DNA of 64,000 nucleotides from an uncultured virus (IMG/VR IMGVR_UViG_3300025900_000203) (lineage: Duplodnaviria; Heunggongvirae; Uroviricota; Caudoviricetes), in the IMG/VR virus record IMGVR_UViG_3300025900_000203, one strand, 5' to 3'. This document shows, in pieces, positions 13,697 through 52,297 of the stretch (its first letter is position 1; each line of letters starts with the position of its first letter). The notes beneath the pieces were generated by a model. It saw only the letters and a list, made by a program, of their open reading frames with translations. It did no database searches and had not been told where the DNA came from. The position numbers were made by a program, and so were the translations under genes.

Positions 13697-14221
13697 TCAC
13701 TTGCGGCCGATATCGGCGAGGACGAGCCCCCACACGTCGTGAGGCACCTGATCCATCACCCACGGCTTCGCCTGGGCTAGCTCGTAGACGGCGAGCGCCC
13801 ACTTCTTACGGCGGGCAGGTACGTGAGCCAGTGCCCGATAGCCAGACAGCCGCCGATTCATATCGCGCCTGATCTCGACTGCGGTCGCTTCTTCGAGCGG
13901 CATGGTTCCCGAATGCGTCTCCACGCGGATTCCTGTCGGAGCGAGATCGCTCCACTCCACGCCAGAAGGGTGCTCTTCGCGCTTGGTTGCGTGGAAAGCC
14001 TTTCGTCCGCGCTGGACAATCCGACCTGTGGCGTCAACTCCAACGACGTGCAGTTGGCTGCCAGGATTTGCAGCTTGGAATTTCTTGGCTGCCTTGCGTG
14101 TCGTAAACACAGCGGATCGCGTCTTACCAGCAGCTGTCCGTGAGACCTCGTAACCGACGCTTTTGGGTCGCTGAAGAGCTTCCGCGATTTCACGATCCAG
14201 CTGTGCAGGCGTCTTCGACAT
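13697..14221 (-). CDS. hypothetical protein with AQLDREIAEAL leader
   Basis: MSKTPAQLDREIAEAL; internal FHATKR; TAGGAT 8 nt upstream of ATG. Confidence 0.75.
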   Translation of the reverse strand: MSKTPAQLDREIAEALQRPKSVGYEVSRTAAGKTRSAVFTTRKAAKKFQAANPGSQLHVVGVDATGRIVQRGRKAFHATKREEHPSGVEWSDLAPTGIRVETHSGTMPLEEATAVEIRRDMNRRLSGYRALAHVPARRKKWALAVYELAQAKPWVMDQVPHDVWGLVLADIGRK

Positions 14222-14323
14222 GCCTGCAGATCCTACGACATTCGCCGAAGGAGCGCGACGTTCGCGCACTGCGCTGTCTCAGCCGACGGTGCCGACAGCC
14301 GTCGCTTCGAACACCTCGATTTC

Positions 14324-14497
14324 TCACCGAGGTGCGGGCTGTTCACGCTGCTCGTCCCGTCGTCGGGCCTGGCACATGCGACATAGGTTGTCGACGTAGA
14401 AGCAGGGCCACTCGGTATCTCCGCACCGTTCGCAGCACTTCCGATACGCGGCGCGATCCGCGGTGGTCGCGACTTCTTGCTGGTTGAGTAGACGCAT
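14324..14497 (-). CDS. 57-aa Zn-finger-like protein (below ORF track cutoff)
   Basis: MRLLNQQ...CCERC...CRMC; ATG 13 nt after sigma54 -12 GC. Confidence 0.6.
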   Translation of the reverse strand: MRLLNQQEVATTADRAAYRKCCERCGDTEWPCFYVDNLCRMCQARRRDEQREQPAPR

Positions 14498-14509
14498 AGC
14501 CCTGTCTGA

Positions 14510-14567
14510 AGCAGCGCCTGTGCCAGCGCTAAGTTGTCGTGGTTAAAGCCTGGGTTGTTCGATACCC
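14510..14567 (-). promoter_or_regulatory. sigma54-type promoter plus GGGT-N8-ACCC box
   Basis: TGGCACAGGCGCTGCT (14525-14510); box 14552-14567, 27 nt upstream of GG. Confidence 0.7.
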
Positions 14568-14592
14568 AGTCTCCATCCGACAACAGCGTGTC

Positions 14593-15735
14593 TTAGTTGC
14601 TCTGCCCCGGGACGTAGCCGAACAGCTCGATCTGTCCAACGCCCGTGACCGTCTGCCCATTCGAGGTGCCGCTCACGACCGCGCTGCCCTCGTACCACGG
14701 TGCGAAGAAGGCTGGCCGTGCCGTCAGCTCCTGATCGAGCACCGTCGGTTGCACGACGAGGTGCACGCCCTTCGACGGGATGTCGACCGTGAACTGCGTC
14801 GGATAGATGTTTCCAGAGTGCGGCGAGGTCCACGATCCCGAATGGCCGAGCGTAAACTGATTCGAGGTGAGCACGCCTTGTCCGCAGGATGGTGCCGCGT
14901 CGAGGAAGTTCACGGTCCGCGAGAGCACCTGATCACGGTGACCACCCACGTAGATGTCGTAGATCATCAGCTCTTGGCCGTTGGAGAGCTGCACGCCGTA
15001 CCAATCCCAGCCAACCGGCACACCTGCGAAGCAGCACGGATCCCATTCGCGATCGAACCAGCTCTGTCCAACGACCGGCTTCACCTGGCCCGTCGGCAAC
15101 GTGAGCGTACCCACGGTCGCGAGACGCGTGCGCGAGTAGTACCAGTTGTCGCCGGCGTATTGCCCGCTCGGAGTGATGAAGGCTGCGTAGCCGTTGTTCA
15201 GCTCGAGGAGCGGGGTCTTGAGGCTCGTTGAGTAGAGATCGAGGTTATAACCGTCGACCGCGGCACGCACGTGATCGACGAGTCCCCCGCCACCCGTGGC
15301 GGAGGGGCCGTGGTCGATCGCGAGGTTGAAGCTGTTGACGGTCTGCGCGAACGTGCCGGCGACGAGGTACGAGCTCTGATGGAACACCCCCGTCTGCTTG
15401 TCGGTCAGGCCGACACTTCCCCAGAGCAGCGTCGAGTAACCGCTCGCGTCCGTGCAGAGATCCGGGCACAGGAAATTCGGCACGATGAACTGGAAGAGGA
15501 AGACGTGGTACGTGTAGCGCTGATCGATCTGCCCGAACCAGAACCACTCGTTCATGGGATCTGGATTGATCGGCGCGTCATCGTGCGGAAGCTGGATCTG
15601 CGTCGGCGGCAGATCCGGGCTCGCACAGAAGCTGATGGAGTCGCTCTCTTGCGCGACGGTTGCGGTGGTCTCATCAGGCGGCGGTGCAGCGCAGCTCGTG
15701 AGGAGAAAAAGGGCGACGGCGAATAACTTCTTCAT
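14593..15735 (-). CDS. AttH/CrtC-like (lipocalin-like hydrolase) lipoprotein
   Basis: Lipobox LTSC; EWFW, YYSRTRL, GQSWFDREW, GWDWY, WTSPHSGNIYP, DQEL, YEG, ELFGY. Confidence 0.85.
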   Translation of the reverse strand: MKKLFAVALFLLTSCAAPPPDETTATVAQESDSISFCASPDLPPTQIQLPHDDAPINPDPMNEWFWFGQIDQRYTYHVFLFQFIVPNFLCPDLCTDASGYSTLLWGSVGLTDKQTGVFHQSSYLVAGTFAQTVNSFNLAIDHGPSATGGGGLVDHVRAAVDGYNLDLYSTSLKTPLLELNNGYAAFITPSGQYAGDNWYYSRTRLATVGTLTLPTGQVKPVVGQSWFDREWDPCCFAGVPVGWDWYGVQLSNGQELMIYDIYVGGHRDQVLSRTVNFLDAAPSCGQGVLTSNQFTLGHSGSWTSPHSGNIYPTQFTVDIPSKGVHLVVQPTVLDQELTARPAFFAPWYEGSAVVSGTSNGQTVTGVGQIELFGYVPGQSN

Positions 15736-15807
15736 GCCTGTCAAGTTGTATCGCAAGGTGTAATTTTCCGATACTGCTTAAATTAGCCAGTGTGCGGGAG
15801 CCACGAA

Positions 15808-16215
15808 TCAGTGCGCCAACACGCCCGGGGGCACGAAATCGTTCCTCTCGCCACGCAACCATTCGTGATGGCCGCCGAACCCGCCGAGCGACGCGGGAAT
15901 CCAATCGCAACCGAGCAGCACGTGAGCGATGAAACGATGGTGCCCGTCGTCGATGAAGGGCATCCCCCAGTAGATCGGTCCACCCCAACGCATAGGAGTT
16001 ACTTCGTTGTCGACGAAGATAGGATCGATCGGACGGTCCGCGAGGATCTCATCCATGAAGAACCGCACACGCCGAATGTCGTAGATGCGTCCGCGAATCC
16101 TGCCAAATTCTGCGAGCGGTCGCGAGCGTTGGATACGACGGTCTTTCGCGATCGCGTCCGCCCAAGGCGGCCAGTAGATCGAGTGGAGCCGTCGCGTGAG
16201 GATATATTCCGTCAT
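15808..16215 (-). CDS. ParB/Srx-fold protein, paralog of 39411..39818
   Basis: RVRFF...PIFVDN...IDDGHHR. Confidence 0.7.
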   Translation of the reverse strand: MTEYILTRRLHSIYWPPWADAIAKDRRIQRSRPLAEFGRIRGRIYDIRRVRFFMDEILADRPIDPIFVDNEVTPMRWGGPIYWGMPFIDDGHHRFIAHVLLGCDWIPASLGGFGGHHEWLRGERNDFVPPGVLAH

Positions 16216-16216
16216 G

Positions 16217-16993: not shown

Positions 16994-16994
16994 G

Positions 16995-23468: not shown

Positions 23469-25466
23469 TCACTCCCGCACGTATTCCTTGCGGAGCTTGT
23501 TGAACGCGCGCTTCGAAAGTGAGATCGCAAGCTTAAGCTCGAGATGCCTCCACGGGTTGTCGAGCTGCGAGTCCTGTGGATCGATCCGCTGAAGGATGCT
23601 GTTGCCGGTGTACGGCTCATGGGTCGTCCAGTGCTGGAGAGGCCAAGGTATCTTCCCTGCTGGGATACCCATGAGCAGCGCGAGCGCTCGCGGGTTGTCA
23701 GGGCTGATCAAGGTGAACACCGAGGCTCGTGAGGGTGGGTTGATGGCGCATTCGAAGTACCGCCCATTCCATTTCCCGAAGCGGAGACCCTCCGGCGTTC
23801 CCCCGTAAGTCTTGTACCAATCACGGCCTTCCTTCTGCTGAAGGATGTTGCCGGTTGACCAACGCAACGTGTCGCGCGTAGGAAACGGCTCTTTCTCCGT
23901 GCTCTTCCACGAAGTCTTGGGGGCGATGAGTGAGCCCCGTGCGACGGCGGCCCAAAGGAAGGGCAGGTTTCGCTCGAGACGCTTGCGATACCAGGCAAGG
24001 ATCGTTGCCTGCTTCGCTGCGAAGTCCGCCGTCGCGAGCCGTTGCACCCCGTTGATGAGATTCACACGCCCGTACCAGGAGCGTGTCTGCTCAATGTCCG
24101 CGGCTGTGCCAAAGTAGCTTGGGTCGAGTGCCATCGGCTCGATCGCTACCTTGCGGAGATCGCGACCTCCCCAGCGCATGACTCCAGGCTGCTGCCGCTC
24201 TCGTGGGAGATCCTCGATGTGCGCATCCCCCGGTAGAAGTTTTTGGGCGGCTTTCCCCGCGTACAGCGCTTGGCGATCTCCCACGACATCGAGCAAGATC
24301 TCCGGCACCTGATGGCGGTAGCGCTCCTCGAGCCACGCGTTGTGCCCGAGCGGCGGCTTATTTTTCGCACGCTCCGCCGTCGTTGTCGTTGTCGTGAGGG
24401 CCGGCAGGACGAGCGGCGTGTAGTGACCCGTTGACACGAGAGCGCTCTGTGCCGCCACGAGAGCATGAGGAGCGACCACCATCTCGCCGGTGTACGAGAG
24501 CTGTGGCAGCTTCTCGTCGTCGCGATCGAACTTCGCCGCGATCAGCTCAAAGAGTAGGATCAGCCAAACGAACTCCGGCGGTTCCAGCTCGGAGATTTCA
24601 GCGATCGCCTGGGCCTTTGCATCGAGCGGTACCAGTGCATGTTTTCTAGACGTGCGCTTGACCGGATCTTCTTCGAGAAGCCTGTAGGGGAACCAGTGCT
24701 GCCGCGCACGCTCTTCGAGCTGTCGATCCGGCCGCCGCGTCATGTTGTGATACTCGGGGTGCGCGCCGTCCTGGAAGTCGGTCAAGGTCGTGATCGTTTC
24801 GCCATTGCGGAGGCCGAGCGCGAAGTACGCCTTGCAGTTGTCCCCGGATCGAATCAACGCGAGTGTGATGCCTGAAACCATTTGATGTCGGAGGGCGTGC
24901 AAGAACGAGTTGATGCTCGAGAACTCGTAGATCTTCCGGTTGTACTGGAGCGGTTTGGGATCCCGAGCTCCCTGCGTGAACTGATGGATCGCTAGCGTGA
25001 CCAGGCTGCGTGACGCGGCAAGGCGGAGTTCTCCGAGTGCCCTTTCGTCGTTGAGGATCTTTTGAAGCGCGGGTAGCTCGTAGCTGTAATGGGTTGCGGC
25101 GGATCGCAACGCCCCCCGGAATGCGACGATCGCCTCTTCGCACGATGCTTGGGTGACCAGCGCATGGAACGCTCGCAGGGGACCGAGTGTTTCTTCGACC
25201 TCGTCCGCCGCATAGAGGAGCGTGTGAAAACGGAGCGACTTCTCTTTGACGTACGTCTCGAACAACCCGCGCAACAGCAGGATTGCTGTCGTGCCGGTCG
25301 GATCCTGCACACGAGCGTCGTTGAGCGCGGCGACGTACTTTTGGAGGTCGTGATCCTGGAACTCAGAGTTATTGAACGAGATCGTGTACGTGTTCGTGCC
25401 GAGCTTGGTGCCCGTGAGCTGGGCCCACAGCGGCACGGCCGCATTCAGGATCTCGTTGAGCGTCAT
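23469..25466 (-). CDS. large hypothetical protein (665 aa)
   Basis: Long uninterrupted ORF; no motif recognised. Confidence 0.8.
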   Translation of the reverse strand: MTLNEILNAAVPLWAQLTGTKLGTNTYTISFNNSEFQDHDLQKYVAALNDARVQDPTGTTAILLLRGLFETYVKEKSLRFHTLLYAADEVEETLGPLRAFHALVTQASCEEAIVAFRGALRSAATHYSYELPALQKILNDERALGELRLAASRSLVTLAIHQFTQGARDPKPLQYNRKIYEFSSINSFLHALRHQMVSGITLALIRSGDNCKAYFALGLRNGETITTLTDFQDGAHPEYHNMTRRPDRQLEERARQHWFPYRLLEEDPVKRTSRKHALVPLDAKAQAIAEISELEPPEFVWLILLFELIAAKFDRDDEKLPQLSYTGEMVVAPHALVAAQSALVSTGHYTPLVLPALTTTTTTAERAKNKPPLGHNAWLEERYRHQVPEILLDVVGDRQALYAGKAAQKLLPGDAHIEDLPRERQQPGVMRWGGRDLRKVAIEPMALDPSYFGTAADIEQTRSWYGRVNLINGVQRLATADFAAKQATILAWYRKRLERNLPFLWAAVARGSLIAPKTSWKSTEKEPFPTRDTLRWSTGNILQQKEGRDWYKTYGGTPEGLRFGKWNGRYFECAINPPSRASVFTLISPDNPRALALLMGIPAGKIPWPLQHWTTHEPYTGNSILQRIDPQDSQLDNPWRHLELKLAISLSKRAFNKLRKEYVRE

Positions 25467-32259: not shown

Positions 32260-32577
32260 CTAGTTGATGAGATCTACGACGATCGTCAGACGAAGCATCT
32301 GGCGACCGACCGAGATGAGATCCCCCGAGACTAGCTTCCGTCGATTGATCTTCTGGCCGTTCACGTAGGTGCCGAGTACGGATCCGAGGTCTATGAGGAA
32401 GATGCCGTCGTGGTTACGCTCGATGACCGCGTGCAGCCGAGATACTTGATCGTCGTTGGCGAAACGAATGTTCGCGCTGGAAACGCTGCCGATCTTGATC
32501 GTCAACGCGGACGGATCCGAATTGTATTGAAATGTTTGAGTGACGGTATCTCCGTTCATAATTTCAATGCGGATCAT
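32260..32577 (-). CDS. stand-alone FHA domain protein
   Basis: IKIGS...VSRLHAVI...DLGSVLGTYVNG...LVSGDLISVG; GGAGG RBS. Confidence 0.9.
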   Translation of the reverse strand: MIRIEIMNGDTVTQTFQYNSDPSALTIKIGSVSSANIRFANDDQVSRLHAVIERNHDGIFLIDLGSVLGTYVNGQKINRRKLVSGDLISVGRQMLRLTIVVDLIN

Positions 32578-32807
32578 GCAAGCCTCCAAGCATGTCAACA
32601 CACGCTTTGCACCGTTGGATGGGGAATTTACGTTCGGACATCGGACGCGAGTCGTTCGCCAAGTATTGACCAAGGCTCTCGAAGAGCGGCACAGCGATGC
32701 ACGGCGCACAGTTTCTGTCGCACAGCGGGGTCGAGGCGTCGTCGAGTTGGCAGTGAACGTCGAGCGGTGGCCTTCGTGGAAGCAGAAACATTCGTTTGGA
32801 CATCCTG

Positions 32808-33374
32808 TCAATGTTCAGGTGCGAAGGGTCTGCGGCCGTCGACATGTAACTGTTCGTCAACCTCGTGGAGGTAAAGCTGGCGTACGATGTGACGAATGAA
32901 ACGGCTCGCACTCTCTTCGTGGTAGGGCGGTAGCTTGTAGCGAGCGGCGAGCGGCACAGGGAGACCCTTGGCGATGGCGAGTGGGATCTTGTCTCTACCT
33001 TCCTTGTCGACGAAGAGCTTCAACTCCGGCCCCTGGGGGTCAGGGGGCTCGTAGGGAACGATCACTTCAACCACGACGTAGTGTCCATCCACACGAAACG
33101 TCACGGGCAACGCTCCACCCACGCGAACGGTCGGCAGGTACGCAGACCAATGCTCGACATCGTGCGGTTCGAGTGGCGGCCCCTCAAGTTGAGTGGCTTC
33201 CGTGTAGAGGGCCATTGCGGCATCGATCATCGCGTGCCGGATCACGTCTCCCCAGCAATCCGCGTCTCCTGCGTTGATCGCTTCGCGCAGCAGCTTGTCT
33301 GCCTGTGTTCGAAGGTCGCTGGCCTGTTGGATCAGATGATGGGTGTCTGTGAAGTTTTCCACGCTCTTATTCAT
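32808..33374 (-). CDS. hypothetical protein
   Basis: Ends HEVDE...DG.RPFAPEH. Confidence 0.65.
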   Translation of the reverse strand: MNKSVENFTDTHHLIQQASDLRTQADKLLREAINAGDADCWGDVIRHAMIDAAMALYTEATQLEGPPLEPHDVEHWSAYLPTVRVGGALPVTFRVDGHYVVVEVIVPYEPPDPQGPELKLFVDKEGRDKIPLAIAKGLPVPLAARYKLPPYHEESASRFIRHIVRQLYLHEVDEQLHVDGRRPFAPEH

Positions 33375-35244: not shown

Positions 35245-35445
35245 TGCGCGGGCACTTTCCGTCCGAAAGCCTTCACGAGGCGCTCAAAGCAGACCCACAG
35301 GCCGTAGTGGAGCCGCGTTCGGGTGCCGTGGCCGCAGAGCGTAGCTCCCGGGTCGAACGTGTCCGCGTCTTCACGGTTCGATGCGCTTTACTCGGCATTG
35401 CGATCCCATTTCAGGTTCTGGTAGCGAGCTGCTAGCGTGGACAAG

Positions 35446-35928
35446 ATGAAGGTCCTGACTTCAAGTGCCACATCGAACGTACCAGAAGAGGTCGTTCCAA
35501 CGATCTTGGAGGACGTTGCCGTCGAGGCCGCGACTCTCAAGGAGTTGCGGACGGCGTATCGCGAGTTACGGGCGGCGTACAGCGATCTGCATGTACGACA
35601 CCACGCACGGATCATTGAAGCTCTCGCTGACCTCAAGGAAGAGGGAAAGAAGACAGGCGGCGACGTCCCGTACGGATATCGACTTGCCGACGATGCCGAG
35701 ACACTGCTTGAGGACGAGACCGAGCAGAAGGTGATCGCCGAGGTAGTCGAGCTCCGTGCGCAAGGTATGTCGTTTCGACGGATCGCACAGGAGTTGTGGA
35801 AGAAGAAGCTACGCCCACGGCCGGTTCCCAAAGTGCGGGGACGGCTGAAGACGAAGCGTTTCGGCGTGTTCGATCCGACACAGATCCGACGCATGATCAA
35901 GGCACACGAGGAGCGCACGACGGAATGA
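35446..35928 (+). CDS. serine-recombinase DNA-binding (Recombinase) domain protein without catalytic domain
   Basis: GGDVPYGY...EQKVI...G.SFRRIA.EL; no resolvase Y.RVS motif; TAGCGT 7 nt upstream of ATG. Confidence 0.75.
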   Translation: MKVLTSSATSNVPEEVVPTILEDVAVEAATLKELRTAYRELRAAYSDLHVRHHARIIEALADLKEEGKKTGGDVPYGYRLADDAETLLEDETEQKVIAEVVELRAQGMSFRRIAQELWKKKLRPRPVPKVRGRLKTKRFGVFDPTQIRRMIKAHEERTTE

Positions 35929-35932
35929 CGCT

Positions 35933-36961
35933 TCATTTATTGCGAAGCTTCTTGGGAAGGAGATCGATGAAGGAGTTCGCCGGCGCGACTGGCGCGTCCG
36001 ACAACTTCATGTAACGCGCGGTCGTCTCACTCTTGCTGTGTAGGAGACCACGCTGGACGATCTCCATGGAGACGCCGCGCTGCTTAGCGATCGTTGCGAG
36101 CGATCGACGGAAAGCGTGTGGGGTGAAGCGCGTGTGGTCGACGAAGCCTGCGCGAGCTGCCTGGCGCTTGACGGCATTTCGCACGGTGGTCGTCCCCACC
36201 GCGTTCAGACCATTTTCAGATTTGCGGAACAGCGGACCTGCCACGATGTTGAATTCCTTGACCCAGTTCAGCAGCATCCGTGCGAGCGGTGCGACGACCT
36301 CGACGCGTCCGTACTTGCCACCTTTCGCGTGGACGCGGAGCAAGCCACCCTCAACGTCGAGCTTCTCGAAATCATTGATCGCGATCCGTGCCACCTCGGA
36401 GCGGCGCAGTCCTGTGAACGTGAGCACTACTGTGATGAGGTAGTCACGCTGCTCGATGAAGCTATCGTCGTCGGGAGCCACACTAAGGAAGCGCTCTAGG
36501 TCGACAGCCTCGATCCACGGCGTCTTCATGGGAGCGCTGTCGCCCTTAGGATTCTTGGCTTCGCGCGCCGGGTTCGCTCCGGCGAGAACGCCCGTCTGTG
36601 AGAGCGCGGCGTAGAACGCACGGATCACGGCGAGTGCCCGAGCTCGGGTGTTCTGCCGTTTGCCGCGCGCGCGAAGCTCCAAGAGGTACGCCTGCACGTC
36701 GAGCGTGATGACGTTGAGCGGTGACTTTCCCTTGGCCGCCAGATGCGCGACGTAGGTCTCCCATTCGCGCTTGTACGCGCGCTCGCTCTCGGGGCTGTTC
36801 AGCGCCGACAAGATCTGAGCGACCGCGGCGGCGAGCCGATCGTCCTGGGCCGGCGCGACGACGATCGCGGTGGCAGGCACCGCCGGGATCACGGCGACGG
36901 CAGTTGTAGGCGGAGCCGCCGATCGCCGGCGCGGCTTTGCGGACGCTGTCCTAACCGGCAC
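35933..36961 (-). CDS. tyrosine recombinase/integrase
   Basis: Core-binding domain plus TGLRRSE, KGGK, HAFR, LLHS, TARY: full R-K-H-R-H-Y set. Confidence 0.93.
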   Translation of the reverse strand: MPVRTASAKPRRRSAAPPTTAVAVIPAVPATAIVVAPAQDDRLAAAVAQILSALNSPESERAYKREWETYVAHLAAKGKSPLNVITLDVQAYLLELRARGKRQNTRARALAVIRAFYAALSQTGVLAGANPAREAKNPKGDSAPMKTPWIEAVDLERFLSVAPDDDSFIEQRDYLITVVLTFTGLRRSEVARIAINDFEKLDVEGGLLRVHAKGGKYGRVEVVAPLARMLLNWVKEFNIVAGPLFRKSENGLNAVGTTTVRNAVKRQAARAGFVDHTRFTPHAFRRSLATIAKQRGVSMEIVQRGLLHSKSETTARYMKLSDAPVAPANSFIDLLPKKLRNK

Positions 36962-37118
36962 GTTTCGCCCCTTCCCACGGGTCATCTGCCGCGGCAGGGT
37001 TCGCGATCGTGCGCCGCACTTGGCCGGCCAGCTGCTCTGGTGTCCTGCCGCCAGACTGCGCGTACCAGACCAGTCCCCGCAGGAGCATCCCGATCGCCTC
37101 GTAGATCTTGTCATCCAT
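36951..37118 (-). CDS. 55-aa hypothetical protein (below ORF track cutoff)
   Basis: MDDKIYEAIG...; AAGGAG RBS. Confidence 0.55.
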   Translation of the reverse strand: MDDKIYEAIGMLLRGLVWYAQSGGRTPEQLAGQVRRTIANPAAADDPWEGAKRAG

Positions 37119-37335
37119 CGCGACGCTCCTTGTGGAGATCGATCATGGGCAGCGACAGCCACGGAAGCGCCCCGGTGCTGTACTGCGCGCCGCAGTCCTC
37201 GCACTGCACGAGGGTGACGGGGCGGTCGGGAAGGACCTCGGACCGGACCTCCAGGAAGTCCTCGCAGCCGCACGCTGGGCAAGTTTCCCGCGCGTTTGTC
37301 ATCGCATTCCATTCTCTTGGGTCTTCGGACACCAC
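37111..37335 (-). CDS. Zn-ribbon protein
   Basis: CPACG...CEDCG. Confidence 0.6.
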   Translation of the reverse strand: MVSEDPREWNAMTNARETCPACGCEDFLEVRSEVLPDRPVTLVQCEDCGAQYSTGALPWLSLPMIDLHKERRDG

Positions 37336-37928
37336 GTCTTGTGCGGCAGTGCTGGCTCACTGCCATCTTCTTCGCCGCACGTGCAGTGAGCACCACGAGC
37401 CCCGCTCGTCTGGACAATCACGCACCTATCACGGAGACCGTTGCGGTGGCTCCCGAGCTGCTCGATCGAGTCCCCGTCGTACGGGTTCACAGCCTCCTCG
37501 GGCATCGACGCCGAGATGTTCGCCTCGCCCAGCATCTCCACGACCGCACGCGCGACCACCGTCGCTTGGGCCTGAGGGCCCGTGATCGTAACGACGAGGT
37601 TGATCCCGCCCGGACCACGGGACTCGCGCTCGACAGCCGCGTCATAGCGGGCCTGCATCTCGGGGGTGCGCGCGGCGGCCAGCATCCCGACCTTCGCGAT
37701 GATCTCGTCACGGATGTCTGAGCTGCGCCGCCCGAGGCGAATGTCTTCCGCGATCGCGGTACGGATGTCGGGCTCTGCGAGCTGAGCCTTGAGCTTCTTC
37801 TCGATCGCACGAAGCTGCTCTCGCACCGGATCGGGCTCGTGTTTGAGCACTTCCTCGGCGCTGCGATCGCCTACGAGGAGAAGCAGGATCTGGAGCTGCT
37901 GCGGGTCAAACGGGGCGTGATCGGCCAT
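37299..37928 (-). CDS. hypothetical protein
   Basis: Starts MADHAP; TAGGGT 7 nt upstream. Confidence 0.65.
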   Translation of the reverse strand: MADHAPFDPQQLQILLLLVGDRSAEEVLKHEPDPVREQLRAIEKKLKAQLAEPDIRTAIAEDIRLGRRSSDIRDEIIAKVGMLAAARTPEMQARYDAAVERESRGPGGINLVVTITGPQAQATVVARAVVEMLGEANISASMPEEAVNPYDGDSIEQLGSHRNGLRDRCVIVQTSGARGAHCTCGEEDGSEPALPHKTWCPKTQENGMR

Positions 37929-39913: not shown

Positions 39914-40717
39914 ATGAACGTGCTCGATCTCGATCAGGTGAAACTGCAACCCGGCAGCGGAAAGCGCTGGACCATGGCCCCGCAGCGTTGCGTCGAGGTG
40001 AAGACGTACCGCATGCAAAAGCACCAGCCTGCGATTGTGCTTGCGACGTGTGGAGACATGCTCTTGCTCAAGCTCTCGGTCGTGCCTGATCCTGCGTGGT
40101 GGTGGGTGACTCCCGATGGTTTCGTCGTATGCCATATGGATCAGACGCGTCAGGGCTACCGCTTCACACGCACGATCGCGAAGCTCCTTCGTGTCCTCAG
40201 ACAGCTCGCCTACAAGGCGGGACGCAAGCGCGCGACTGAGCAGCAACTCGCCGAGCGTGCCGCGGCGCGCGTCGGTCGCGACGGCGAGTGCCAGATCTGT
40301 GCAAATCGGCAGATCCTTCAGAAGGGCGTGCTCGTGCTTCACGGATATCAACGACCCGGCGACGGCATGGCGCACGGAGAATGCCACGGTCGGGGCTACG
40401 AGCCGTATGAAGTGAGCTGCGATCGCTTGCGTTGGTACGTCGAGGTGTTTCTCGTCAGTGCCCTCGCAAACGTTCACCAACTGTTGACCGATCTCCCGAG
40501 GATCCAACAACTACCGCGACAGGTCTCGGATAGCTCCAGCGTCCTCAGGTTCCACACGGAGATGGTGGCGCGCGGAGAGCGGGGCTTCGATCGTTTGGAG
40601 GAGCACCGGCGCTCTGAGTTGAAGATGAAGATCAACTCCTTGGAGTTTGAGAGCCAGCAACAGGGCCGTCGTCTTGCCGCGTGGCGATCGCCAGCGGAGG
40701 TGCCACGTGGCCGTTGA
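39914..40717 (+). CDS. phage-type Zn-binding hypothetical protein
   Basis: GECQIC...HGYQRPG...CHG...PYE. Confidence 0.7.
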   Translation: MNVLDLDQVKLQPGSGKRWTMAPQRCVEVKTYRMQKHQPAIVLATCGDMLLLKLSVVPDPAWWWVTPDGFVVCHMDQTRQGYRFTRTIAKLLRVLRQLAYKAGRKRATEQQLAERAAARVGRDGECQICANRQILQKGVLVLHGYQRPGDGMAHGECHGRGYEPYEVSCDRLRWYVEVFLVSALANVHQLLTDLPRIQQLPRQVSDSSSVLRFHTEMVARGERGFDRLEEHRRSELKMKINSLEFESQQQGRRLAAWRSPAEVPRGR

Positions 40718-41267: not shown

Positions 41268-41603
41268 TCAACGAACCGCGCGTAGCTTCCATCGCTTGGG
41301 AGGCACCTGCTTGAGGGCATCCGTGACGTTCGAATGTTGCGAATCACCGACGGGACCCTGTGCGTCGAAGAAGCTGACCTGCCACGTGCCAGCAGCCTTC
41401 GTCGACGGATGGAGGATGGCTGACTCCTCGCGGCGCGTTCGCGAGGCGAACTCGGCCGCCCGCACCGTTCCGACGGCTTTCCACTCGCAGCTCTTGATGC
41501 CGAACGCGAGGGTCCGGCAGACAACACGCAAGGGCGACTTCGGCGGCTGCCGCGAGAGAGCCTCCGCAATCTCGCGATCGAGTTGGGCCCCGCTCTTGCG
41601 CAT
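41268..41603 (-). CDS. hypothetical protein with AQLDREIAEAL leader
   Basis: MRKSGAQLDREIAEAL; TAACAT 7 nt upstream. Confidence 0.75.
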   Translation of the reverse strand: MRKSGAQLDREIAEALSRQPPKSPLRVVCRTLAFGIKSCEWKAVGTVRAAEFASRTRREESAILHPSTKAAGTWQVSFFDAQGPVGDSQHSNVTDALKQVPPKRWKLRAVR

Positions 41604-41613: not shown

Positions 41614-42114
41614 TTACTCGAGACCGATCGTCGCCGACACGAAGGGATTCAGCTCGAAGGAGTCCGGCGGCGAGATCGCGACCCGCAACTCGAAGGTGTC
41701 GCCGATCGCGAACGCCACGGGTCCCGCGAGTGCGGTCTTGATGCCCGATTCGCCCGCGACGTACAAGAGCGAGAACCCAGGCACCGGCGTGCCTTGATCG
41801 CCGTTCTTGATCAGATCGATGACGAGCGTGGTGTCGGGGGGCACGGTCTCCGAGAGGTTGACCGCGATGTTCACCAAGCTACGGGCGACCGCGAGAGGGT
41901 AATTCGTTTCCCCGGTGGCTGGGGTGCTGGGAACACCCGAGTCACCCAGGAACGTGAGCAGAACACCCTGTCCCGAGCTCTGTGCGGATCCCGAGAACTT
42001 GAGCAGCCCTGCCGACGTGCCTGCTGGACCGGCAGGACCGCGATGGCCTCGCTTGCCGCGCTTACCGCGCGCGCCGCCTTCGTCACAGAAATCGAGAGTT
42101 TGTACGTCAGCCAT
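41614..42114 (-). CDS. short collagen-repeat protein with beta-rich C-terminal domain, paralog 1
   Basis: GARGKRGKRGHRGPAGPAG Gly-X-Y run. Confidence 0.8.
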   Translation of the reverse strand: MADVQTLDFCDEGGARGKRGKRGHRGPAGPAGTSAGLLKFSGSAQSSGQGVLLTFLGDSGVPSTPATGETNYPLAVARSLVNIAVNLSETVPPDTTLVIDLIKNGDQGTPVPGFSLLYVAGESGIKTALAGPVAFAIGDTFELRVAISPPDSFELNPFVSATIGLE

Positions 42115-42180: not shown

Positions 42181-42693
42181 TTATTCGAGCCCGATCGTTG
42201 CCGACACGAACGGATTGATCTCGAAGGAGTCCGTCGGCGAGATCGTGACCCGCAGATCGAAGGTGTCGCCGATCGCGAACGCCACGGGACCTGCGACGGC
42301 GCTTTTGATGCCCGTTTCACCCGCAACGTACGTGATCGAGAATCCTGGCACGGGTGTGACCAGGTCACCGTTCTTGATCAGATCGAAGGTGAGCGTGGTG
42401 TCGGGGGGCACGGGCCCATTCGCCACGAGGTTCGTTTCGATGTTCACGAAGTTGCGCGCGATCGCGAGCGGATAGCTCGTCTCACCCGTCGTGGGCGTGT
42501 TGCCGGGTCCCGCCGCTCCAAGGAAGGTAACGAGCGACGGGCCTTCCCCCAAACTGAGGACTGTCCCCGAGAACATGAGCAAGCCGCCGGCCGACGGACC
42601 CGCGGGTCCCGCGGGTCCTCGAGGACCTCGCTTGCCGCGTTTGCCCCGCTTGCCGTCACCATCGCAAAAATCGAGAGTTTGCACGTCAGCCAT
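42181..42693 (-). CDS. short collagen-repeat protein with beta-rich C-terminal domain, paralog 2
   Basis: GKRGKRGPRGPAGPAG; highly similar to 41614..42114. Confidence 0.8.
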   Translation of the reverse strand: MADVQTLDFCDGDGKRGKRGKRGPRGPAGPAGPSAGGLLMFSGTVLSLGEGPSLVTFLGAAGPGNTPTTGETSYPLAIARNFVNIETNLVANGPVPPDTTLTFDLIKNGDLVTPVPGFSITYVAGETGIKSAVAGPVAFAIGDTFDLRVTISPTDSFEINPFVSATIGLE

Positions 42694-48186: not shown

Positions 48187-48678
48187 TCAGTTGCTGCTCG
48201 TTGTCCGGCTCGCCTTCCCCGGACGTTTCCCCGTCGGGATCGCTTCCTTGCTGTAAGGCTTGAGCGCTCGAGCGACGAGCTTGAGATCCGTCGAGGTCGG
48301 CTGCTTCTTCGCGAGCTCCTTGCGAAACTCGATCTCGCGTTTGCAGGCGATCTCGTGGGCATCGTCGTAGTCCATGCCGCTGTAGAGCATGAGGTTCCGT
48401 TCGACGATTTCATGGAAGATCGTTGCGATGCGATCGAGCACGTGAAGCGCGTCGTCGAGCCAGATCTCGTTCTTGGGGATGTAGCCGGGATACGCCGCTT
48501 CCGATCCGCCAGCTGTGAAATCGATATCTGTCTTGTTGCGGACCTGCTCGCCGGATACGAGATAGATCGCGAGCCCGTTGATGAAGCCGAGCCGCTTGAG
48601 TCGCGGCAGCTTGAGGGCGAGACTCGACGAGATCTCGCTGTCCAACTGGGCATGGGATTTCTTCGCTTGAGGCGGCAT
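48187..48678 (-). CDS. leader-motif protein with HExxE...H metal-binding-like motif
   Basis: KKSHAQLDSEISSSL; FHEIVE...YDDAHEIA; TAGGAT 6 nt upstream. Confidence 0.75.
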   Translation of the reverse strand: MPPQAKKSHAQLDSEISSSLALKLPRLKRLGFINGLAIYLVSGEQVRNKTDIDFTAGGSEAAYPGYIPKNEIWLDDALHVLDRIATIFHEIVERNLMLYSGMDYDDAHEIACKREIEFRKELAKKQPTSTDLKLVARALKPYSKEAIPTGKRPGKASRTTSSN

Positions 48679-49158: not shown

Positions 49159-49171
49159 GCGTTGGATTGTA

Positions 49172-49699
49172 CTAGCTGTACAGATTCCGAAGCATGTTGG
49201 TGCGTAGATCGCCTTCTGGAAGTTGTTCGATGCGATCGAGAGCCTGTTGTCGGAGCTGCGATACCTTCAGGGCGACGGCTTTGCCATTCGGATCATTCCA
49301 ACTATAGGTGCGGAGCGAGGACTCGAGGTTCTTGGCCCGCGACCGCAGGTCGTGGATGATTGCGCGCTCTTCCAAGAAGGGGCCTGAACCCATGAGCCGT
49401 CGCGACGCTTCGAGAGTGTCGGACTTGTATGCCGGCAACTTCTTTTCTGTGCGGGCTGTCGCTGTCGCGAGATCGATCATGCGCTCAAGATCCCGCTGTT
49501 GCGCCACGCTAAGAACCGTCGCAGCCTCAAGACGGATCGCGTCTAGAACTTCCCCGAGCCAGAAGCCGCGATCGACACTTGGGGTCTTGGCGGGAACCAC
49601 ACGATTCACGTATGGCCGCACGCCTGCCGACGCCTTTCCTGTACGGCTCCATTGAGTCGCCTGATTTACGAGCCGTCGGTAGCTATCGATCTTCGTCAT
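49172..49699 (-). CDS. hypothetical protein
   Basis: 175-aa ORF. Confidence 0.65.
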   Translation of the reverse strand: MTKIDSYRRLVNQATQWSRTGKASAGVRPYVNRVVPAKTPSVDRGFWLGEVLDAIRLEAATVLSVAQQRDLERMIDLATATARTEKKLPAYKSDTLEASRRLMGSGPFLEERAIIHDLRSRAKNLESSLRTYSWNDPNGKAVALKVSQLRQQALDRIEQLPEGDLRTNMLRNLYS

Positions 49700-49719
49700 A
49701 CGCGGTTGAATGATATCAG

Positions 49720-50103
49720 CTATACGCTCTCGTACGCTGCAAGCTTCGCGTCGTCGCCGCTCCGTGCGTGCCGGGCCCGTTCATGCAGCGAACCGGCACG
49801 GATGTTCACACCCGCCTCTTCGTAAAGGTCAGCGGCGACGTCCAAATCGTCGGCGGCTTGGCGGAGGAGCCCACGGTCCTTCGAGCTCCAATCGGCCCAT
49901 GGATCCCTCCGACTGCGAACTTCGTGAATGACCCGGTTCGCTTGCGCGGCCAGCTGGCCAGCTTCCTGAATCCGCGGATCGTCAGGGTTCGCACGCGGGG
50001 ACAACCGTGCCGATCCACGTGGCGCCGGGCCTCCATAACCGCTTAGCGGCTTGTGTTGAAGGTGCTCGTGGGCGAGTGCGGACACGGTGTACTCCCTGCC
50101 CAT
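49720..50103 (-). CDS. hypothetical protein
   Basis: 127-aa helical ORF. Confidence 0.6.
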   Translation of the reverse strand: MGREYTVSALAHEHLQHKPLSGYGGPAPRGSARLSPRANPDDPRIQEAGQLAAQANRVIHEVRSRRDPWADWSSKDRGLLRQAADDLDVAADLYEEAGVNIRAGSLHERARHARSGDDAKLAAYESV

Positions 50104-50127
50104 GAGTCTGAGTCTTCGACCGAGTTG

Positions 50128-50538
50128 TCACTCGATGAGGTCAGCGGTGTGTCCGCCGTAGAGGCCTTGCTTCTTCGCTGTCTGGACGGCCGCATAGATC
50201 CGACGTACGACGTCCTCGGAAGTGCCGTGTGCGCGCGCGACGTCGCCGTGATTCCACCGCTTGCGCTTAGTCGAATGGCTTCGCGCGCCGACGGAAATAC
50301 TCGCGATCGGTGAACTGCGTTTGTGCGCAGCCTCCCAAACTTCAACGTGGTCGTCAGCGTCATCGCCTTGAACAGCGAGATGCCAATCGTATGGAAAGAG
50401 CGTCTGGGTCTCGCGGATCGCTAGCCGAGCCGCGATCGCGGGCCGCACCCCAGTCTTCACGTGCTGGCGTGCGCGCTTGACGAGTTGCGCGCACGCGTGC
50501 TCGATCAGGTCCTTCGCGAAGTGCTTCTTCGTGGTCAC
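50128..50538 (-). CDS. hypothetical protein with HSTK motif
   Basis: ARSHSTKRKR; TAGAAT upstream. Confidence 0.6.
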   Translation of the reverse strand: MTTKKHFAKDLIEHACAQLVKRARQHVKTGVRPAIAARLAIRETQTLFPYDWHLAVQGDDADDHVEVWEAAHKRSSPIASISVGARSHSTKRKRWNHGDVARAHGTSEDVVRRIYAAVQTAKKQGLYGGHTADLIE

Positions 50539-50616
50539 GATGACGAAATTCTACTGCATCGCGGACGTTGGTCGTCGAATGGTATCCGTTCGAAGAGTCC
50601 GATAGACTCGCGGATC

Positions 50617-50847
50617 ATGGCGAAGGAATACGTAAGCCCTGCGAAAAAGACGCTGCGCGAGTTGCAGCGCCTCGACAAGGCGCTGTCGACGGCGCAGCAG
50701 TACGCGGGGACGTTGGACGTTTACAACAGCCAATTTCCAGGCGCCAAGAAGCTGGGGTCCGAGGCGTGGGACGAGATGGAGAAGATTCGGCTCAAGATCC
50801 GCAAGATGCTGGAGCGTCTCGAACGGCCCGGGGGCATCTTCGGATGA
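50617..50847 (+). CDS. hypothetical protein
   Basis: Starts MAKEY; TAGACT 8 nt upstream. Confidence 0.6.
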   Translation: MAKEYVSPAKKTLRELQRLDKALSTAQQYAGTLDVYNSQFPGAKKLGSEAWDEMEKIRLKIRKMLERLERPGGIFG

Positions 50848-51341
50848 TCGGAACGGCCACCGAGATCCTTCCGCACCTCTTCCTTGGCACACGCGAAGAT
50901 GCTGCCGCGTTGGGCTCGAAGGTTCCCGACGACTGGGCCTGCATCTCGGTGACGGAATATCGATCGCGCTACGGCCGCAAAGAAGAGTTGCCCAACGAGC
51001 CCACCGGATCGCTCGACCTGCCGTTCATGGTCGACGCCCCTGGGGGTTGGCACGCTGATCGGTACAAGCTCGATCTGATCGCGGAGACGATCTGTCTCCG
51101 GCTGCTGGAAGACAAGAACGTCCTCGTGCATTGCGTGCAAGGCCAGGAGCGATCGCCACTCGCGGTCGCGTGGTACCTCGCGTGGTCTGGCGCGGCAGGC
51201 TCGTTCGCGCGTGCCTACGATCGCGTCGAGCGGAAGCATCCACGTACGGAGCGTCGGGATGCATGGCTTCGAGGCGCGACACCAGGGGAGCGGCATCCAC
51301 GCTTTCGCGTACTGCTCGTCGCCTCGCGAACGGTGCCGTAA
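50844..51341 (+). CDS. dual-specificity protein phosphatase
   Basis: EILPHLFLG; VLVHCVQGQERS (HCx5R). Confidence 0.9.
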   Translation: MIGTATEILPHLFLGTREDAAALGSKVPDDWACISVTEYRSRYGRKEELPNEPTGSLDLPFMVDAPGGWHADRYKLDLIAETICLRLLEDKNVLVHCVQGQERSPLAVAWYLAWSGAAGSFARAYDRVERKHPRTERRDAWLRGATPGERHPRFRVLLVASRTVP

Positions 51342-51538
51342 CTTCGAGTGGACTGTCGTAAGCTTCAGCGATGAAGGACACGCGCTGGCCACCCGACAAC
51401 GTGAAGGACATCGTCCAGAAGTCTGATCGAAAGCTCGTCGCCTCGACCCCGACGACAGGCAAGTTCAATCAATTCCAGTTGGCTCTCCTAGCTGCTACCA
51501 AACAGTCCAAGCGTTGCCCATAGACTATCGAGCGAACC

Positions 51539-52297
51539 ATGATGCGGAAGAAGACACCCGCGGCGAAACTCGATCGCGAGATCGCTGCAGCTCTCCGCAG
51601 CCGCAGCCGTGTGCGGCACTCGACCAAGAAAGCCGTCACGATCACAAACCTCGATCAAATCTCCGATCGCACCCGTCGCGCACTCGGCGATGAATTGGAC
51701 GATGCCGCATCGCGGGCCGTCGCCGCTGGAGCGATCGGCGATCTGACGTACCAGGGAGCCGGCGCGACCGGCGTTGTCTTCTGCGACGAGCGCGGAGTGG
51801 CCTTCAAGGTGGCGCGGCGCGGTCGTGAGGACGCGGTCACCGAGGAGGCGGAGTGGCTTCGAAAAGCCGCGCAGGTTCCTGGCGTGCGCGAGCACGTCGC
51901 GAAAGATGCCCGCTACGACAAACGGCATGACGTGCTCGTACGCGAGTGCGTCGCAGGCCCGAGCGGAACGCCGCGGAACACGAGCAAGCTGTGGAAGCTC
52001 CACCAGGGCATGCGATCCGCAATGGCTCCGTATGGCTGGTTGTCGCCGGAGTTCAAGGAAGACAGCTACGTCATGGCGCGCGGCCGAGGTCCTGTGCTGA
52101 TCGACGCCTCGTCGGCCATCCGCGTCGGTGGCGAGCTCGTGCGCTACGCACAAGACGTGCTCGCCGCACGGCGACCGCAGACCGAGCGGCTGGAAGACAT
52201 TGCGTTCGCGATTCGATCGGAGCGCGGGCAGTCCATCCCGACAGCGGTGGCCGACAAACTCTTGGCGAAGCTTCGAGCCCGCGGCGTCGATACGTAG
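51539..52297 (+). CDS. leader-motif protein with protein-kinase-like domain (atypical catalytic loop)
   Basis: KTPAAKLDREIAAAL...HSTKK; GAGATGVV, VAFK, EEAE, LVRECV, SPEFKEDS, VLIDAS. Confidence 0.65.
   Translation: MMRKKTPAAKLDREIAAALRSRSRVRHSTKKAVTITNLDQISDRTRRALGDELDDAASRAVAAGAIGDLTYQGAGATGVVFCDERGVAFKVARRGREDAVTEEAEWLRKAAQVPGVREHVAKDARYDKRHDVLVRECVAGPSGTPRNTSKLWKLHQGMRSAMAPYGWLSPEFKEDSYVMARGRGPVLIDASSAIRVGGELVRYAQDVLAARRPQTERLEDIAFAIRSERGQSIPTAVADKLLAKLRARGVDT

What the first reader, a model, noticed from the sequence alone, without database searches (positions are those of the whole stretch)
13697..52297. Shared N-terminal leader peptide (AQLDREIAEAL) on otherwise unrelated proteins
Seen: MSKTPAQLDREIAEAL (start 14221), MRKSGAQLDREIAEAL (41603), MPPQAKKSHAQLDSEISSSL (48678) and MMRKKTPAAKLDREIAAAL (51539). 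What follows is unrelated: two unknown domains, an HExxE metal-site-like domain and a kinase-like domain. A second basic motif, H(A/S)TK(K/R), occurs in two of them and in 50128..50538, at apparent domain boundaries. The genes are dispersed, and three have TANNNT 6-8 nt before the ATG. Established: T4 internal proteins use a short N-terminal capsid-targeting sequence removed by the prohead protease. Inference: an undescribed sorting signal that loads diverse effectors into the virion or another phage compartment, with H(A/S)TK as a possible processing or docking site.
Basis: partly seen in the sequence, partly recalled or inferred. Interest (0 to 1): 0.82.

Follow-up and report, generated by a model that had tools for sequence, protein, structure and literature searches.

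The report
Portable helix tag on phage proteins
A group of very large, uncultured soil phage-like elements puts the same short peptide on hundreds of otherwise unrelated small proteins, probably as an address or docking label, but where it sends them is still unknown.

Summary
Four ORFs in the window start with a basic stretch plus [QK]LDxEIxxxL and have unrelated bodies. Conservation is at the protein level, because synonymous sites differ.

It is not a private or strictly N-terminal leader. A profile of the peptide finds 638 protein clusters among 1.84 billion representatives. In the best 150 it is N-terminal 66 times, internal 82 times and C-terminal 6 times. None of 73 exact-pattern hits in bacterial species genomes showed the canonical context, read by eye. 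In three protein families the peptide is an add-on that distant phage relatives lack.

H(A/S)T(K/R/M) is a second real motif: 63 observed against 3 expected. It marks junctions between small modules in flexible linkers.

AlphaFold2 models the peptide as a separate short helix. One tagged body is kinase-like. The HExxE body recurs inside a 2,834-aa polyvalent protein next to a portal gene.

Best reading (0.4): a portable docking tag, most likely for virion loading, with HAT junctions as processing sites. This is unproven. A non-capsid hub is nearly as likely.

The parts
13697..14221 (-). Tagged gene 1 (174 aa): leader, small module, HATKR junction, C-terminal module
   Evidence: (38.7 bits). 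A relative (P0126) has the leader joined directly to the C-terminal module, without the middle module.
14174..14221 (-). Leader peptide of gene 1, aa 1-16, core QLDREIAEAL
13979..13993 (-). HATKR junction motif in gene 1 (aa 77-81)
41268..41603 (-). Tagged gene 2 (111 aa), body unknown; leader aa 1-16 at 41556..41603
   Evidence: (40.9 bits). Near-identical copies in L076 and L134, and a relative in L172.
48187..48678 (-). Tagged gene 3 (163 aa): drifted leader (core QLDSEISSSL, aa 1-20 at 48619..48678) fused to a conserved HExxE domain
   Evidence: (9.8 bits). Most orthologues carry the canonical leader. The body is homologous to a domain of polyvalent or virion-module proteins.
51539..52297 (+). 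Tagged gene 4 (252 aa): leader helix (aa 1-19 at 51539..51595), flexible linker with HSTKK (51617..51631), protein-kinase-like body
   Evidence: (25.2 bits).
50128..50538 (-). Untagged gene (136 aa) with an HSTKR junction motif at aa 88-92 (50263..50277)

Best explanation
The peptide is a portable address or docking tag used by one clade of very large (200-500 kb) uncultured phage-like elements. Its form is a basic stretch, K-K-(S/T)-(P/A)-A, followed by Q-L-D-R-E-I-A-x-A-L.

Shown here:
- It is conserved at the protein level.
- AlphaFold2 models it as a separate 12-15-residue helix on a flexible basic linker; the amphipathic pattern is read from the sequence.
- It has been added to many unrelated small domains, at the N-terminus, between modules or at the C-terminus.
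- A second motif, H-(A/S)-T-(K/R/M), punctuates the linkers between modules.

Inferred:
- The helix binds one conserved partner and so brings a large, fast-changing set of accessory enzymes (kinase-like, ADP-ribosyltransferase-like, HExxE domain, DUF6496 and many unknowns) to one place.
- The most likely place is the prohead, so that the proteins travel with the DNA into the next cell. That would make them a disaggregated form of the polyvalent proteins of other phages.
- The H-A-T junctions would then be cleavage sites of a maturation protease that separates modules and sometimes removes the tag.
For: Reality and selection:
-.

Spread:
- 638 representative clusters at E<=0.001.
- 201 six-frame hits of 6 bits or more in the window plus 121 loci, against 0 in reversed sequences.
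- Up to about 10 copies on one 5.9-kb contig, L075.

Diversity of what it is attached to:
- 136 downstream bodies fall into 79 BLAST clusters, and 70 upstream segments into 42.
- Only 13 of 150 tagged representatives have any Pfam hit.

Add-on nature:
- Kinase family: most orthologues are tagged, some carry two tandem helices, and the most divergent have none.
- HExxE family: 87 of 120 score 6 bits or more, and at least the 7 most divergent listed start exactly at the body.
- 8 IMG/VR relatives lack both leader and HAT.
- 'YGHT' family: 5 IMG/VR relatives start at the body.

Structure:
- Helix 7-21, then a low-confidence linker holding HSTKK, then the body.
- Helix 9-20 in the HExxE protein.

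Junction motif:
- 63 against 3.1+-1.9 in shuffles; the reversed motif gives 5 against 2.5.
- 102 against 4 reversed in the 150 representatives.
- It lies between modules, and fused and split homologues break at it.

Virion link:
- The HExxE body is aa 546-634 of a 2,834-aa polyvalent protein. That protein has InPase, Topo IB and RNA ligase domains and PHROG hits to minor head, virion structural and DarB-like families, and lies just downstream of a portal gene.
- The same body lies in a 481-aa protein between major head, tail-fibre and baseplate genes.
- A tagged body hits PARP and ART-PolyVal.
- Tail-fibre-like genes lie on the same stretch, within about 4 kb of tagged genes, in 5 of 38 gene-called loci.

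Precedent:
- T4 internal proteins are diverse and share only a capsid targeting sequence (PMC3012670, passages).
- Phages package effectors and polyvalent proteins (PMC5512222, passages).
Against: - No capsid, scaffold, portal, terminase or prohead-protease gene of this clade was seen, either in the window or in the loci scanned. No receptor or protease can therefore be named.
- The tag is internal in 82 of 154 instances, unlike the T4 signal.
- Only 11 of 66 N-terminal tags are followed by HAT within 36 residues, so removal of the tag cannot be general.
- Relatives of the tagged 'YGHT' family sit in replication and DNA-modification modules, not structural ones.
- One tagged representative carries a sigma-70 region 4 domain.
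- About a quarter of N-terminal tagged genes (14 of 54) have host-like leaderless promoters, which says nothing for late expression.
- Phage identity itself is not proven. The 665-aa marker shared with jumbo phages also occurs on megaplasmids.
Confidence: 0.4

Rival explanations
1. The tag is a docking motif for a hub that is not the capsid. The hub could be a protein loaded on DNA, such as a sliding-clamp-like or ParB-like factor, a replication or transcription factory, or a conserved host machine. It would work like clamp-binding peptides, which sit at either end or inside many unrelated proteins.
For: - The tag's position is flexible: N-terminal, internal and C-terminal.
- Tandem copies suggest avidity.
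- One tagged representative has sigma-70 region 4.
- 'YGHT' family relatives lie among polymerase, helicase, recombinase and methyltransferase genes.
- Nearly every helix position is conserved, which points to one specific, conserved partner.
Against: - No hub has been identified.
- The peptide does not fit the recalled clamp-binding consensus QL[SD]LF: positions 4-5 are R and E.
- None of 73 exact-pattern hits in bacterial species genomes showed the tag's canonical context by eye, so it does not mimic a common host motif.
- The HExxE body and the ART-PolyVal link point to virion-delivered proteins.
Confidence: 0.3
2. The conserved peptide and the HAT junction are boundary or linker sequences. 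They persist because they let modules be shuffled, fused and split, either by recombination at short conserved DNA or as a tolerated flexible spacer. Under this reading they bind no partner.
For: - Fused and split homologues break exactly at these motifs.
- Modules are inserted at them: the 14221 gene has a middle module that P0126 lacks.
- Codon choice at HAT is skewed towards CAC GCG ACG AAG.
Against: - Synonymous sites vary freely while the amino acids stay nearly invariant.
- The leader is kept in orthologues across 53-90% identity.
- A mere spacer would not need ten conserved residues forming a helix.
Confidence: 0.08
3. The motifs belong to a phospho-signalling or regulatory circuit of the element. 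The helix docks the element's kinase, the Thr of H-A-T is the acceptor, and FHA and phosphatase proteins read and erase the mark.
For: The window encodes a kinase-like protein, a dual-specificity-phosphatase-like ORF just upstream at 50568..51341, below Pfam's cut-off, and an FHA-domain protein at 32260..32811. Thr is invariant in the junction motif, but the sites were collected with a pattern that requires it.
Against: - The kinase carries the tag itself.
- Most tags have no HAT nearby.
- Whether the residues after the Thr suit FHA binding was not tested; from memory they do not look typical.
- Nothing tested here bears directly on phosphorylation.
Confidence: 0.07
4. The helices pair with each other, so that tagged proteins form mixed oligomers or a condensate without a separate receptor.
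For: Tandem helix-linker-helix arrangements in some orthologues could form a hairpin. The hydrophobic face carries small residues.
Against: An 11-residue helix is short for a stable coiled coil. There is no direct evidence.
Confidence: 0.07

Closest known systems
[quoted passage not shown]
   Same: A short peptide is the only thing shared by a diverse, fast-evolving set of small proteins (PMC3012670, passages). An ADP-ribosyltransferase is among the cargo. A short conserved motif nearby could be a protease site.
   Different: The T4 signal is N-terminal and removed by the prohead protease (recalled). Here 82 of 154 instances are internal and most lack a nearby junction motif. No T4-type head genes were seen. 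Sequence similarity to the T4 signal was not tested. Virion presence is unknown.
Polyvalent proteins of phages and conjugative elements (Iyer et al. 2017, PMC5512222)
   Same: Strings of small effector domains are delivered with the DNA. Domain families are shared: ART-PolyVal, and the HExxE domain sits inside a 2,834-aa polyvalent protein.
   Different: Here the domains are mostly separate small proteins (median 180 aa) or short strings. They are joined by two conserved motifs. In the passages I read (a term search of the paper), 'linker' does not occur and no such motif is mentioned.
Encapsulation peptides of bacterial microcompartments and cargo-loading peptides of encapsulins (recalled)
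   Same: A short amphipathic helix on a flexible linker, at either end or between domains, docks unrelated enzymes to a protein shell.
   Different: Those peptides are poorly conserved in sequence, whereas this one is nearly invariant over ten residues. Pfam found no recognised shell protein among the window's 106 proteins.
Multi-site processing of head and inner-body proteins by the prohead protease of giant phages such as phiKZ and SPN3US (recalled; PMC5694885 seen only as a search listing)
   Same: Short consensus sites in flexible regions, several per protein.
   Different: The recalled consensus there ends in Glu; here it is H-(A/S)-T-(K/R/M). Cleavage has not been shown.

Membership tests
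T4-type capsid targeting sequence | Located at the extreme N-terminus of every cargo protein | tested here: not met
   In the window, 4 of 4 are N-terminal. In the best 150 representatives there are 66 N-terminal, 82 internal and 6 C-terminal instances.
T4-type capsid targeting sequence | Followed by a prohead-protease site and removed | tested here: inconclusive
   Only 11 of 66 N-terminal tags have H-(A/S)-T within 36 residues. An I-A-E triplet is present in 39 of 73 copies. No protease gene was identified.
T4-type capsid targeting sequence | Cargo present inside virions | not testable with these tools
   There is no isolate and no proteome.
Polyvalent proteins (Iyer et al. 2017) | Two or more unrelated effector domains in one polypeptide of a phage or conjugative element | tested here: inconclusive
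   Relatives have 3-5 modules, for example the L084 347-aa protein and the L111 398-aa protein with four HAT sites. The window's tagged proteins have one or two modules.
Polyvalent proteins (Iyer et al. 2017) | Domain families shared with known polyvalent proteins | tested here: met
   An ART-PolyVal/PARP hit on a tagged body. The HExxE body is 43% identical to aa 546-634 of a 2,834-aa multi-domain protein next to a portal gene.
Microcompartment encapsulation peptide | Amphipathic helix on a flexible linker | tested here: met
   Helix 7-21, then a linker of pLDDT 59. Helix 9-20 in the HExxE protein.
Microcompartment encapsulation peptide | Co-encoded shell proteins | tested here: inconclusive
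   No hit named as a shell protein appeared among the 106 window proteins in Pfam. The window is only 64 kb of a contig that is probably 231 kb.
Beta-clamp-binding motif QL[SD]LF (recalled consensus) | Hydrophobic residues at positions 4 and 5 after Q-L | tested here: not met
   Positions 3 and 4 after Q are R and E in 73 of 73 pattern-selected copies. The search pattern fixed them, but diverged copies keep E.
Protein-kinase-like fold (body of 51539..52297) | Bilobal kinase fold | tested here: met
   AlphaFold2 pLDDT 92.7. Foldseek gives 478 PDB matches at E<=0.001. Those listed are protein kinases and kinase-like proteins (RIO2, Bud32/PRPK, a lanthipeptide-synthetase kinase domain, eukaryotic kinases), with TM 0.32-0.44. 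Catalytic residues were not checked.
Zincin metallopeptidase (body of 48187..48678) | Zincin fold with a metal-binding helix | tested here: inconclusive
   HE[IVM]xE is invariant in 120 of 120 listed homologues. Foldseek finds no match. VIA-align lists zincins only at Z 4.5-4.8 among unrelated rows. The ESM Atlas lead to Peptidase_M78 scores only 0.80.

The most novel reading that the evidence does not exclude
A clade of huge soil phages runs an 'address tag plus punctuation' proteome. Hundreds of small accessory domains are encoded singly or as short polyproteins. They are cut apart at H-A-T-(K/M) junctions by a dedicated protease. One universal 11-residue helix then delivers them in bulk to a single destination, the capsid interior for co-injection. 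In effect this is a disaggregated, freely reshuffled polyvalent protein, and the first sequence-defined protein-sorting code of a phage lineage outside T4.
Probability: 0.3. Interest if true: 0.85.

Novelty: new variant of a known kind. Interest (0 to 1): 0.72.

Why it matters
If the tag is an address label, it gives a sequence-defined handle on which proteins of huge uncultured phages act together. It flags at least 638 protein clusters, more than 90% of them without any family assignment, as one functional set. It also offers a ready tool (tag plus reporter) to find the destination.

It would show that the polyvalent-protein strategy can be carried out by non-covalent tagging. If the H-A-T junctions are cleaved, polyprotein processing would exist in a dsDNA phage beyond head maturation.

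Even without a mechanism, the two motifs are practical markers for recognising this phage clade and its accessory genes in metagenomes.

Tried and rejected
- No whole genome is held for the window. Metagenome records cannot be searched whole. The rest of the element, and its head genes, therefore stayed out of reach.
- Megablast of 20 kb against the phage and plasmid collections found no match.
- tblastn of the kinase-like protein against phages found no match.
- tblastn of a 20-aa leader against phages found no match, but the query is too short for this to mean anything.
- Two jumbo phages that share the 665-aa protein (LR745208.1 and CcrBL9) have one chance-level LDxEIxxxL match each, so they lack the tag.
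- DnaJ as a candidate partner: the 485-kb phage has only a J-domain match. This idea was dropped as unmotivated.
- A weak Phage_capsid match in LR745208.1 (21 bits, below cut-off) was not pursued.
- Co-folding of the kinase-like and HExxE proteins (complex prediction) returned 'no answer'. It is no evidence either way.
- PDB sequence searches for two bodies gave nothing below E=0.4.
- The 'LFAVEID' body has no relatives in IMG/VR.
- The one IMG/VR relative of the kinase lies in a 575-aa ORF in an uninformative context.
- A DNA-level reading (GATC pairs inside the motif) was rejected. Only the Asp codon is skewed; the Ile and Glu codons are not.
- Literature string searches for the peptide found no relevant paper.
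- Earlier scan notes held nothing on this genome or sequence.
Full report
**1. The observation**

A six-frame scan of the window for LDxEI gives five hits. They are:
- 13697..14221 (minus strand, 174 aa)
- 41268..41603 (minus strand, 111 aa)
- 48187..48678 (minus strand, 163 aa)
- 51539..52297 (plus strand, 252 aa)

I built a profile from independent metagenome copies of the peptide. It scores the four sites at 40.9, 38.7, 25.2 and 9.8 bits. The next window hit scores 4.4 bits. The best hit in reversed translations of the window plus 121 loci scores 5.1 bits.

The four DNA stretches differ at synonymous positions. Across about 100 copies every codon position varies. The conservation is therefore on the peptide, not on recently copied DNA. 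Behind the peptide the four proteins are unrelated, with a best BLASTP E-value of 0.95.

**2. The element**

The window is about 60% G+C. No whole genome is held for it, and it has no near match in the phage or plasmid collections. Pfam and PHROGs find the following, but no head, tail or terminase gene:
- ParB
- a PAPS-reductase-like protein
- a full-length DnaJ
- Mom
- HIT
- FHA
- integrases
- a peptidase

A 665-aa ORF (23469..25466) has full-length relatives at 29-34% identity in a 485-kb uncultured phage and in Caulobacter and Brevundimonas jumbo phages. It has equally good relatives on megaplasmids, so it does not settle the element's nature.

Several things make a huge phage likely, though none proves it:
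- Contigs that carry the tag also carry collagen-like tail-fibre and tail-fibre-assembly-like genes, HNH and LAGLIDADG endonucleases, RNA ligase, RF-1, PTH2, NUDIX and a sigma factor.
- The nearest ESM Atlas clusters of the HExxE protein are 83-90% viral.
- Orthologues of tagged genes lie on contigs of up to 501,972 bp.
- Proteins identical to the window's own sit on a contig of 231,296 bp.

**3. How widespread the tag is**

An exact degenerate-DNA scan for [QK]LDREIAxAL gave these results:
- IMG/VR: 1 contig.
- One genome per bacterial and archaeal species: 73 loci, about what chance predicts by my rough estimate. By eye, none shows the K-K-(S/T)-x-A pre-sequence with a nearby start.

The metagenome scan yielded 112 distinct instances. 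At least 80 have the basic pre-sequence. Of those 80:
- 49 lie within 13 codons of a start codon.
- 13 are directly preceded by H-(A/S)-(T/R)-(K/R), and 3 of these are at the C-terminus.
- 18 are otherwise internal or C-terminal.

The profile finds 64 further diverged copies in the same loci (QLNREI, QLDAEI, QLQREID and others). One 5.9-kb contig (L075) has about ten copies, and a 9.5-kb contig (L137) about nine. A 461-kb contig has at least six exact copies spread over 180 kb.

I then searched an alignment of 65 copies (A2) against 1.84 billion cluster representatives. It finds 638 proteins at E<=0.001. The best 150 have a median length of 180 aa and hold 154 instances: 66 N-terminal, 82 internal (51 of them preceded by HAT) and 6 C-terminal. 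Their 136 downstream bodies fall into 79 BLAST clusters, and their 70 upstream segments into 42. Only 13 of the 150 have any Pfam hit: DUF6496 six times, sigma-70 region 4, DUF3560, GNAT and a few weak ones.

So the peptide is a clade-wide portable module, and it is not confined to N-termini.

**4. The tag is an add-on under selection**

Three families show this.
- Kinase-like family (90 clusters, 53-81% identical for all but the two weakest). Most orthologues keep a leader. It is often drifted (QLERDIQ...), and sometimes there are two tandem helices separated by HATKK. The most divergent members start at the body.
- HExxE family (142 hits, 120 listed). 87 of 120 score 6 bits or more, and many of the rest show a drifted form. 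At least the seven most divergent listed begin exactly where the body begins. Eight more distant relatives in IMG/VR (34-46% identity) have neither leader nor HAT motif in 131 kb.
- 'YGHT' family (L001, L094, L109). Five IMG/VR relatives start at the body.

The window gene 39914..40717 is untagged, while its homologue in L079 carries the tag at residue 33.

**5. The second motif**

H-(A/S)-T-(K/R/M) occurs 63 times in the proteins of the tag-bearing loci, against 3.1+-1.9 in shuffles. The reversed motif occurs 5 times against 2.5. In the 150 representatives the counts are 102 against 4 reversed. In the window, H(A/S)T(K/R)(K/R) occurs 3 times against 0.1 expected.

The 49 distinct sites lie in Arg/Ala/Gly/Ser/Pro-rich stretches. 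The next residue is K in 35, R in 8 and M in 6. The sites sit between modules. For example, the 347-aa L084 protein reads as follows:
- module
- HATK
- DUF6496
- HATM
- module
- HARKRK
- tag helix
- HATK
- body

Homologous bodies occur both as separate genes starting M-x-K-K-T-P-A-Q-L-D and as fusions behind ...HATKK-S-P-A-Q-L-D (L176 against L083; L136 against L122 and L084). No predicted protein ends in HAT, and sites close to either end are rare. Codons at the site lean towards CAC GCG ACG AAG but do vary.

In the window:
- the 14221 gene has HATKR between its two modules
- the kinase-like gene has HSTKK in the linker after its leader
- 50128..50538 has HSTKR

**6. Structure and bodies**

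With a 55-sequence alignment, AlphaFold2 models the kinase-like protein at pLDDT 92.7. The leader is helix 7-21 (block means 66-85). Residues 21-30 average 59 and hold HSTKK. The body starts near residue 34. Foldseek gives 478 PDB matches at E<=0.001. Those listed are protein kinases and kinase-like proteins such as RIO2, Bud32/PRPK and a lanthipeptide-synthetase kinase domain, with TM 0.32-0.44.

The HExxE protein models at pLDDT 90.9, with the leader as helix 9-20 and only about five residues before the first strand. Its fold has no clear PDB match. HE[IVM]xE is invariant in 120 of 120 listed homologues.

On a helical wheel, L1, I5, A8 and L9 form one face, flanked by D2 and E4. This is my reading of the consensus.

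**7. What the bodies do elsewhere**

The HExxE body is 43% identical (E=8e-21) to residues 546-634 of a 2,834-aa protein in a 133-kb IMG/VR contig (L202). That protein has these features:
- It carries InPase, topoisomerase IB, RNA ligase and a carboxypeptidase-like domain.
- It hits PHROGs for minor head, virion structural and DarB-like proteins.
- It starts 3.4 kb downstream of a portal gene.

In a 44-kb phage with a terminase (L201), the body is 38% identical (E=4e-23) to part of a 481-aa protein that lies between the major head, tail-fibre and baseplate genes. In a third phage it lies in a 1,559-aa ORF. A tagged body in L075, with homologues in L086 and L132, hits PARP and ART-PolyVal.

This matches the class of polyvalent, virion-delivered proteins described by Iyer et al. 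I read passages of that paper (PMC5512222).

Against a purely virion reading:
- Relatives of the tagged 'YGHT' family sit among DNA polymerase, helicase, UvsX, nuclease and methyltransferase genes, although polyvalent proteins do hold such domains.
- One tagged representative has a sigma-70 region 4 domain.

**8. Promoters**

TANNNT 5-9 nt before the start codon is found at 13 of 106 predicted window genes, against 1.4% of random positions and 2% of all ATGs. It is found at 14 of 54 N-terminal tagged genes with an ATG start, and TAGGAT recurs six times. This is a general leaderless-type promoter arrangement of the element, not a mark of the tagged genes.

**9. Interpretation**

Shown:
- a protein-level, portable, helix-forming peptide on flexible basic linkers
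- a separate junction motif
- both specific to one clade of very large phage-like elements
- both attached to a very diverse set of small, mostly unknown domains

Inferred: such conservation of nearly every helix position across hundreds of unrelated carriers is best explained by one conserved binding partner.

I rank the capsid interior first (0.4), for these reasons:
- the links to polyvalent proteins and to the ADP-ribosyltransferase-like body
- the neighbourhood of tail-fibre genes in five loci
- the almost exclusively internal position of the junction motif, as expected of cleavage sites
- the precedent of T4, whose diverse internal proteins share only a capsid targeting sequence (PMC3012670, passages)

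A non-capsid hub is nearly as likely (0.3). Linker-only, phospho-regulatory and self-association readings are less likely. None of these could be tested directly, because no head, scaffold or protease gene of the clade was within reach.

**10. Novelty**

String searches of 8.1 million PubMed Central papers and 0.36 million preprints for the peptide found nothing relevant. Neither Pfam nor PHROGs models the tag. In kind it resembles known address peptides, but it is unrelated in sequence, far more conserved, free in position, and coupled to a junction motif. I therefore class it as a new variant of a known kind.

Supplements of the cited papers were not consulted.

Noticed in passing
window 52545..53909 (+): The ORF that Pfam calls a subtilase is an S53 (sedolisin/kumamolisin-type) peptidase. 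Full-length relatives at 60-72% identity sit on huge contigs of the same clade (461,400, 262,039 and 201,944 bp). Bacterial S53 peptidases, including alphaproteobacterial ones (Stellaceae, Methylocystis, Rhizomicrobium) and a Kofleriaceae one, are 66-68% identical over three quarters of it. This suggests capture from a host lineage.
   Followed up: partly
window 9486..10589 (-): A full-length type I DnaJ (J domain, zinc finger, C-terminal domains) is encoded by the element. It is conserved in three other tag-bearing contigs: L092, L114 and L130.
   Followed up: partly
window 23469..25466 (-): A 665-aa protein of unknown function is shared, full length at 29-34% identity, by jumbo phages of Caulobacter and Brevundimonas, by a 485-kb uncultured phage and by Pseudomonas megaplasmids.
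   Followed up: partly
window 1924..3816 (+), with 501..1376 (+): A 630-aa ORF has a PAPS-reductase-like N-terminal part (PHROG) and a weak LAGLIDADG-like match in the middle, possibly an inserted homing endonuclease or intein. It lies downstream of a ParB-like gene.
   Followed up: no
window 50568..51341 (+), 51539..52297 (+), 32260..32811 (-): A dual-specificity-phosphatase-like ORF (below Pfam's cut-off) lies just upstream of the kinase-like gene, and an FHA-domain protein is encoded elsewhere in the window. Together they could form a phospho-signalling set.
   Followed up: no
window, 13 of 106 predicted genes (for example 41614..42114 and 42181..42693): TANNNT boxes lie 5-9 nt before start codons, which suggests leaderless transcripts. 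The two neighbouring genes named here share an almost identical upstream stretch.
   Followed up: partly
window 35437..35928 (+), 35933..37417 (-), 57350..57952 (+): The 64 kb holds two tyrosine-recombinase genes (one of only 200 aa) and a serine-recombinase-like fragment.
   Followed up: no
L084:6251-7291, L093:4106-4747, L122:5694-6254, L136:3533-4732, L141:5000-5740: DUF6496 (PF20106) modules, singly or in tandem, are among the commonest units strung together by the HAT junctions in relatives.
   Followed up: partly
P0018: One orthologue of the kinase-like protein lies on a 118-kb contig binned as a Gaiellaceae (Actinobacteria) genome. That conflicts with the alphaproteobacterial hint from the S53 peptidase, so the host is open.
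   Followed up: no
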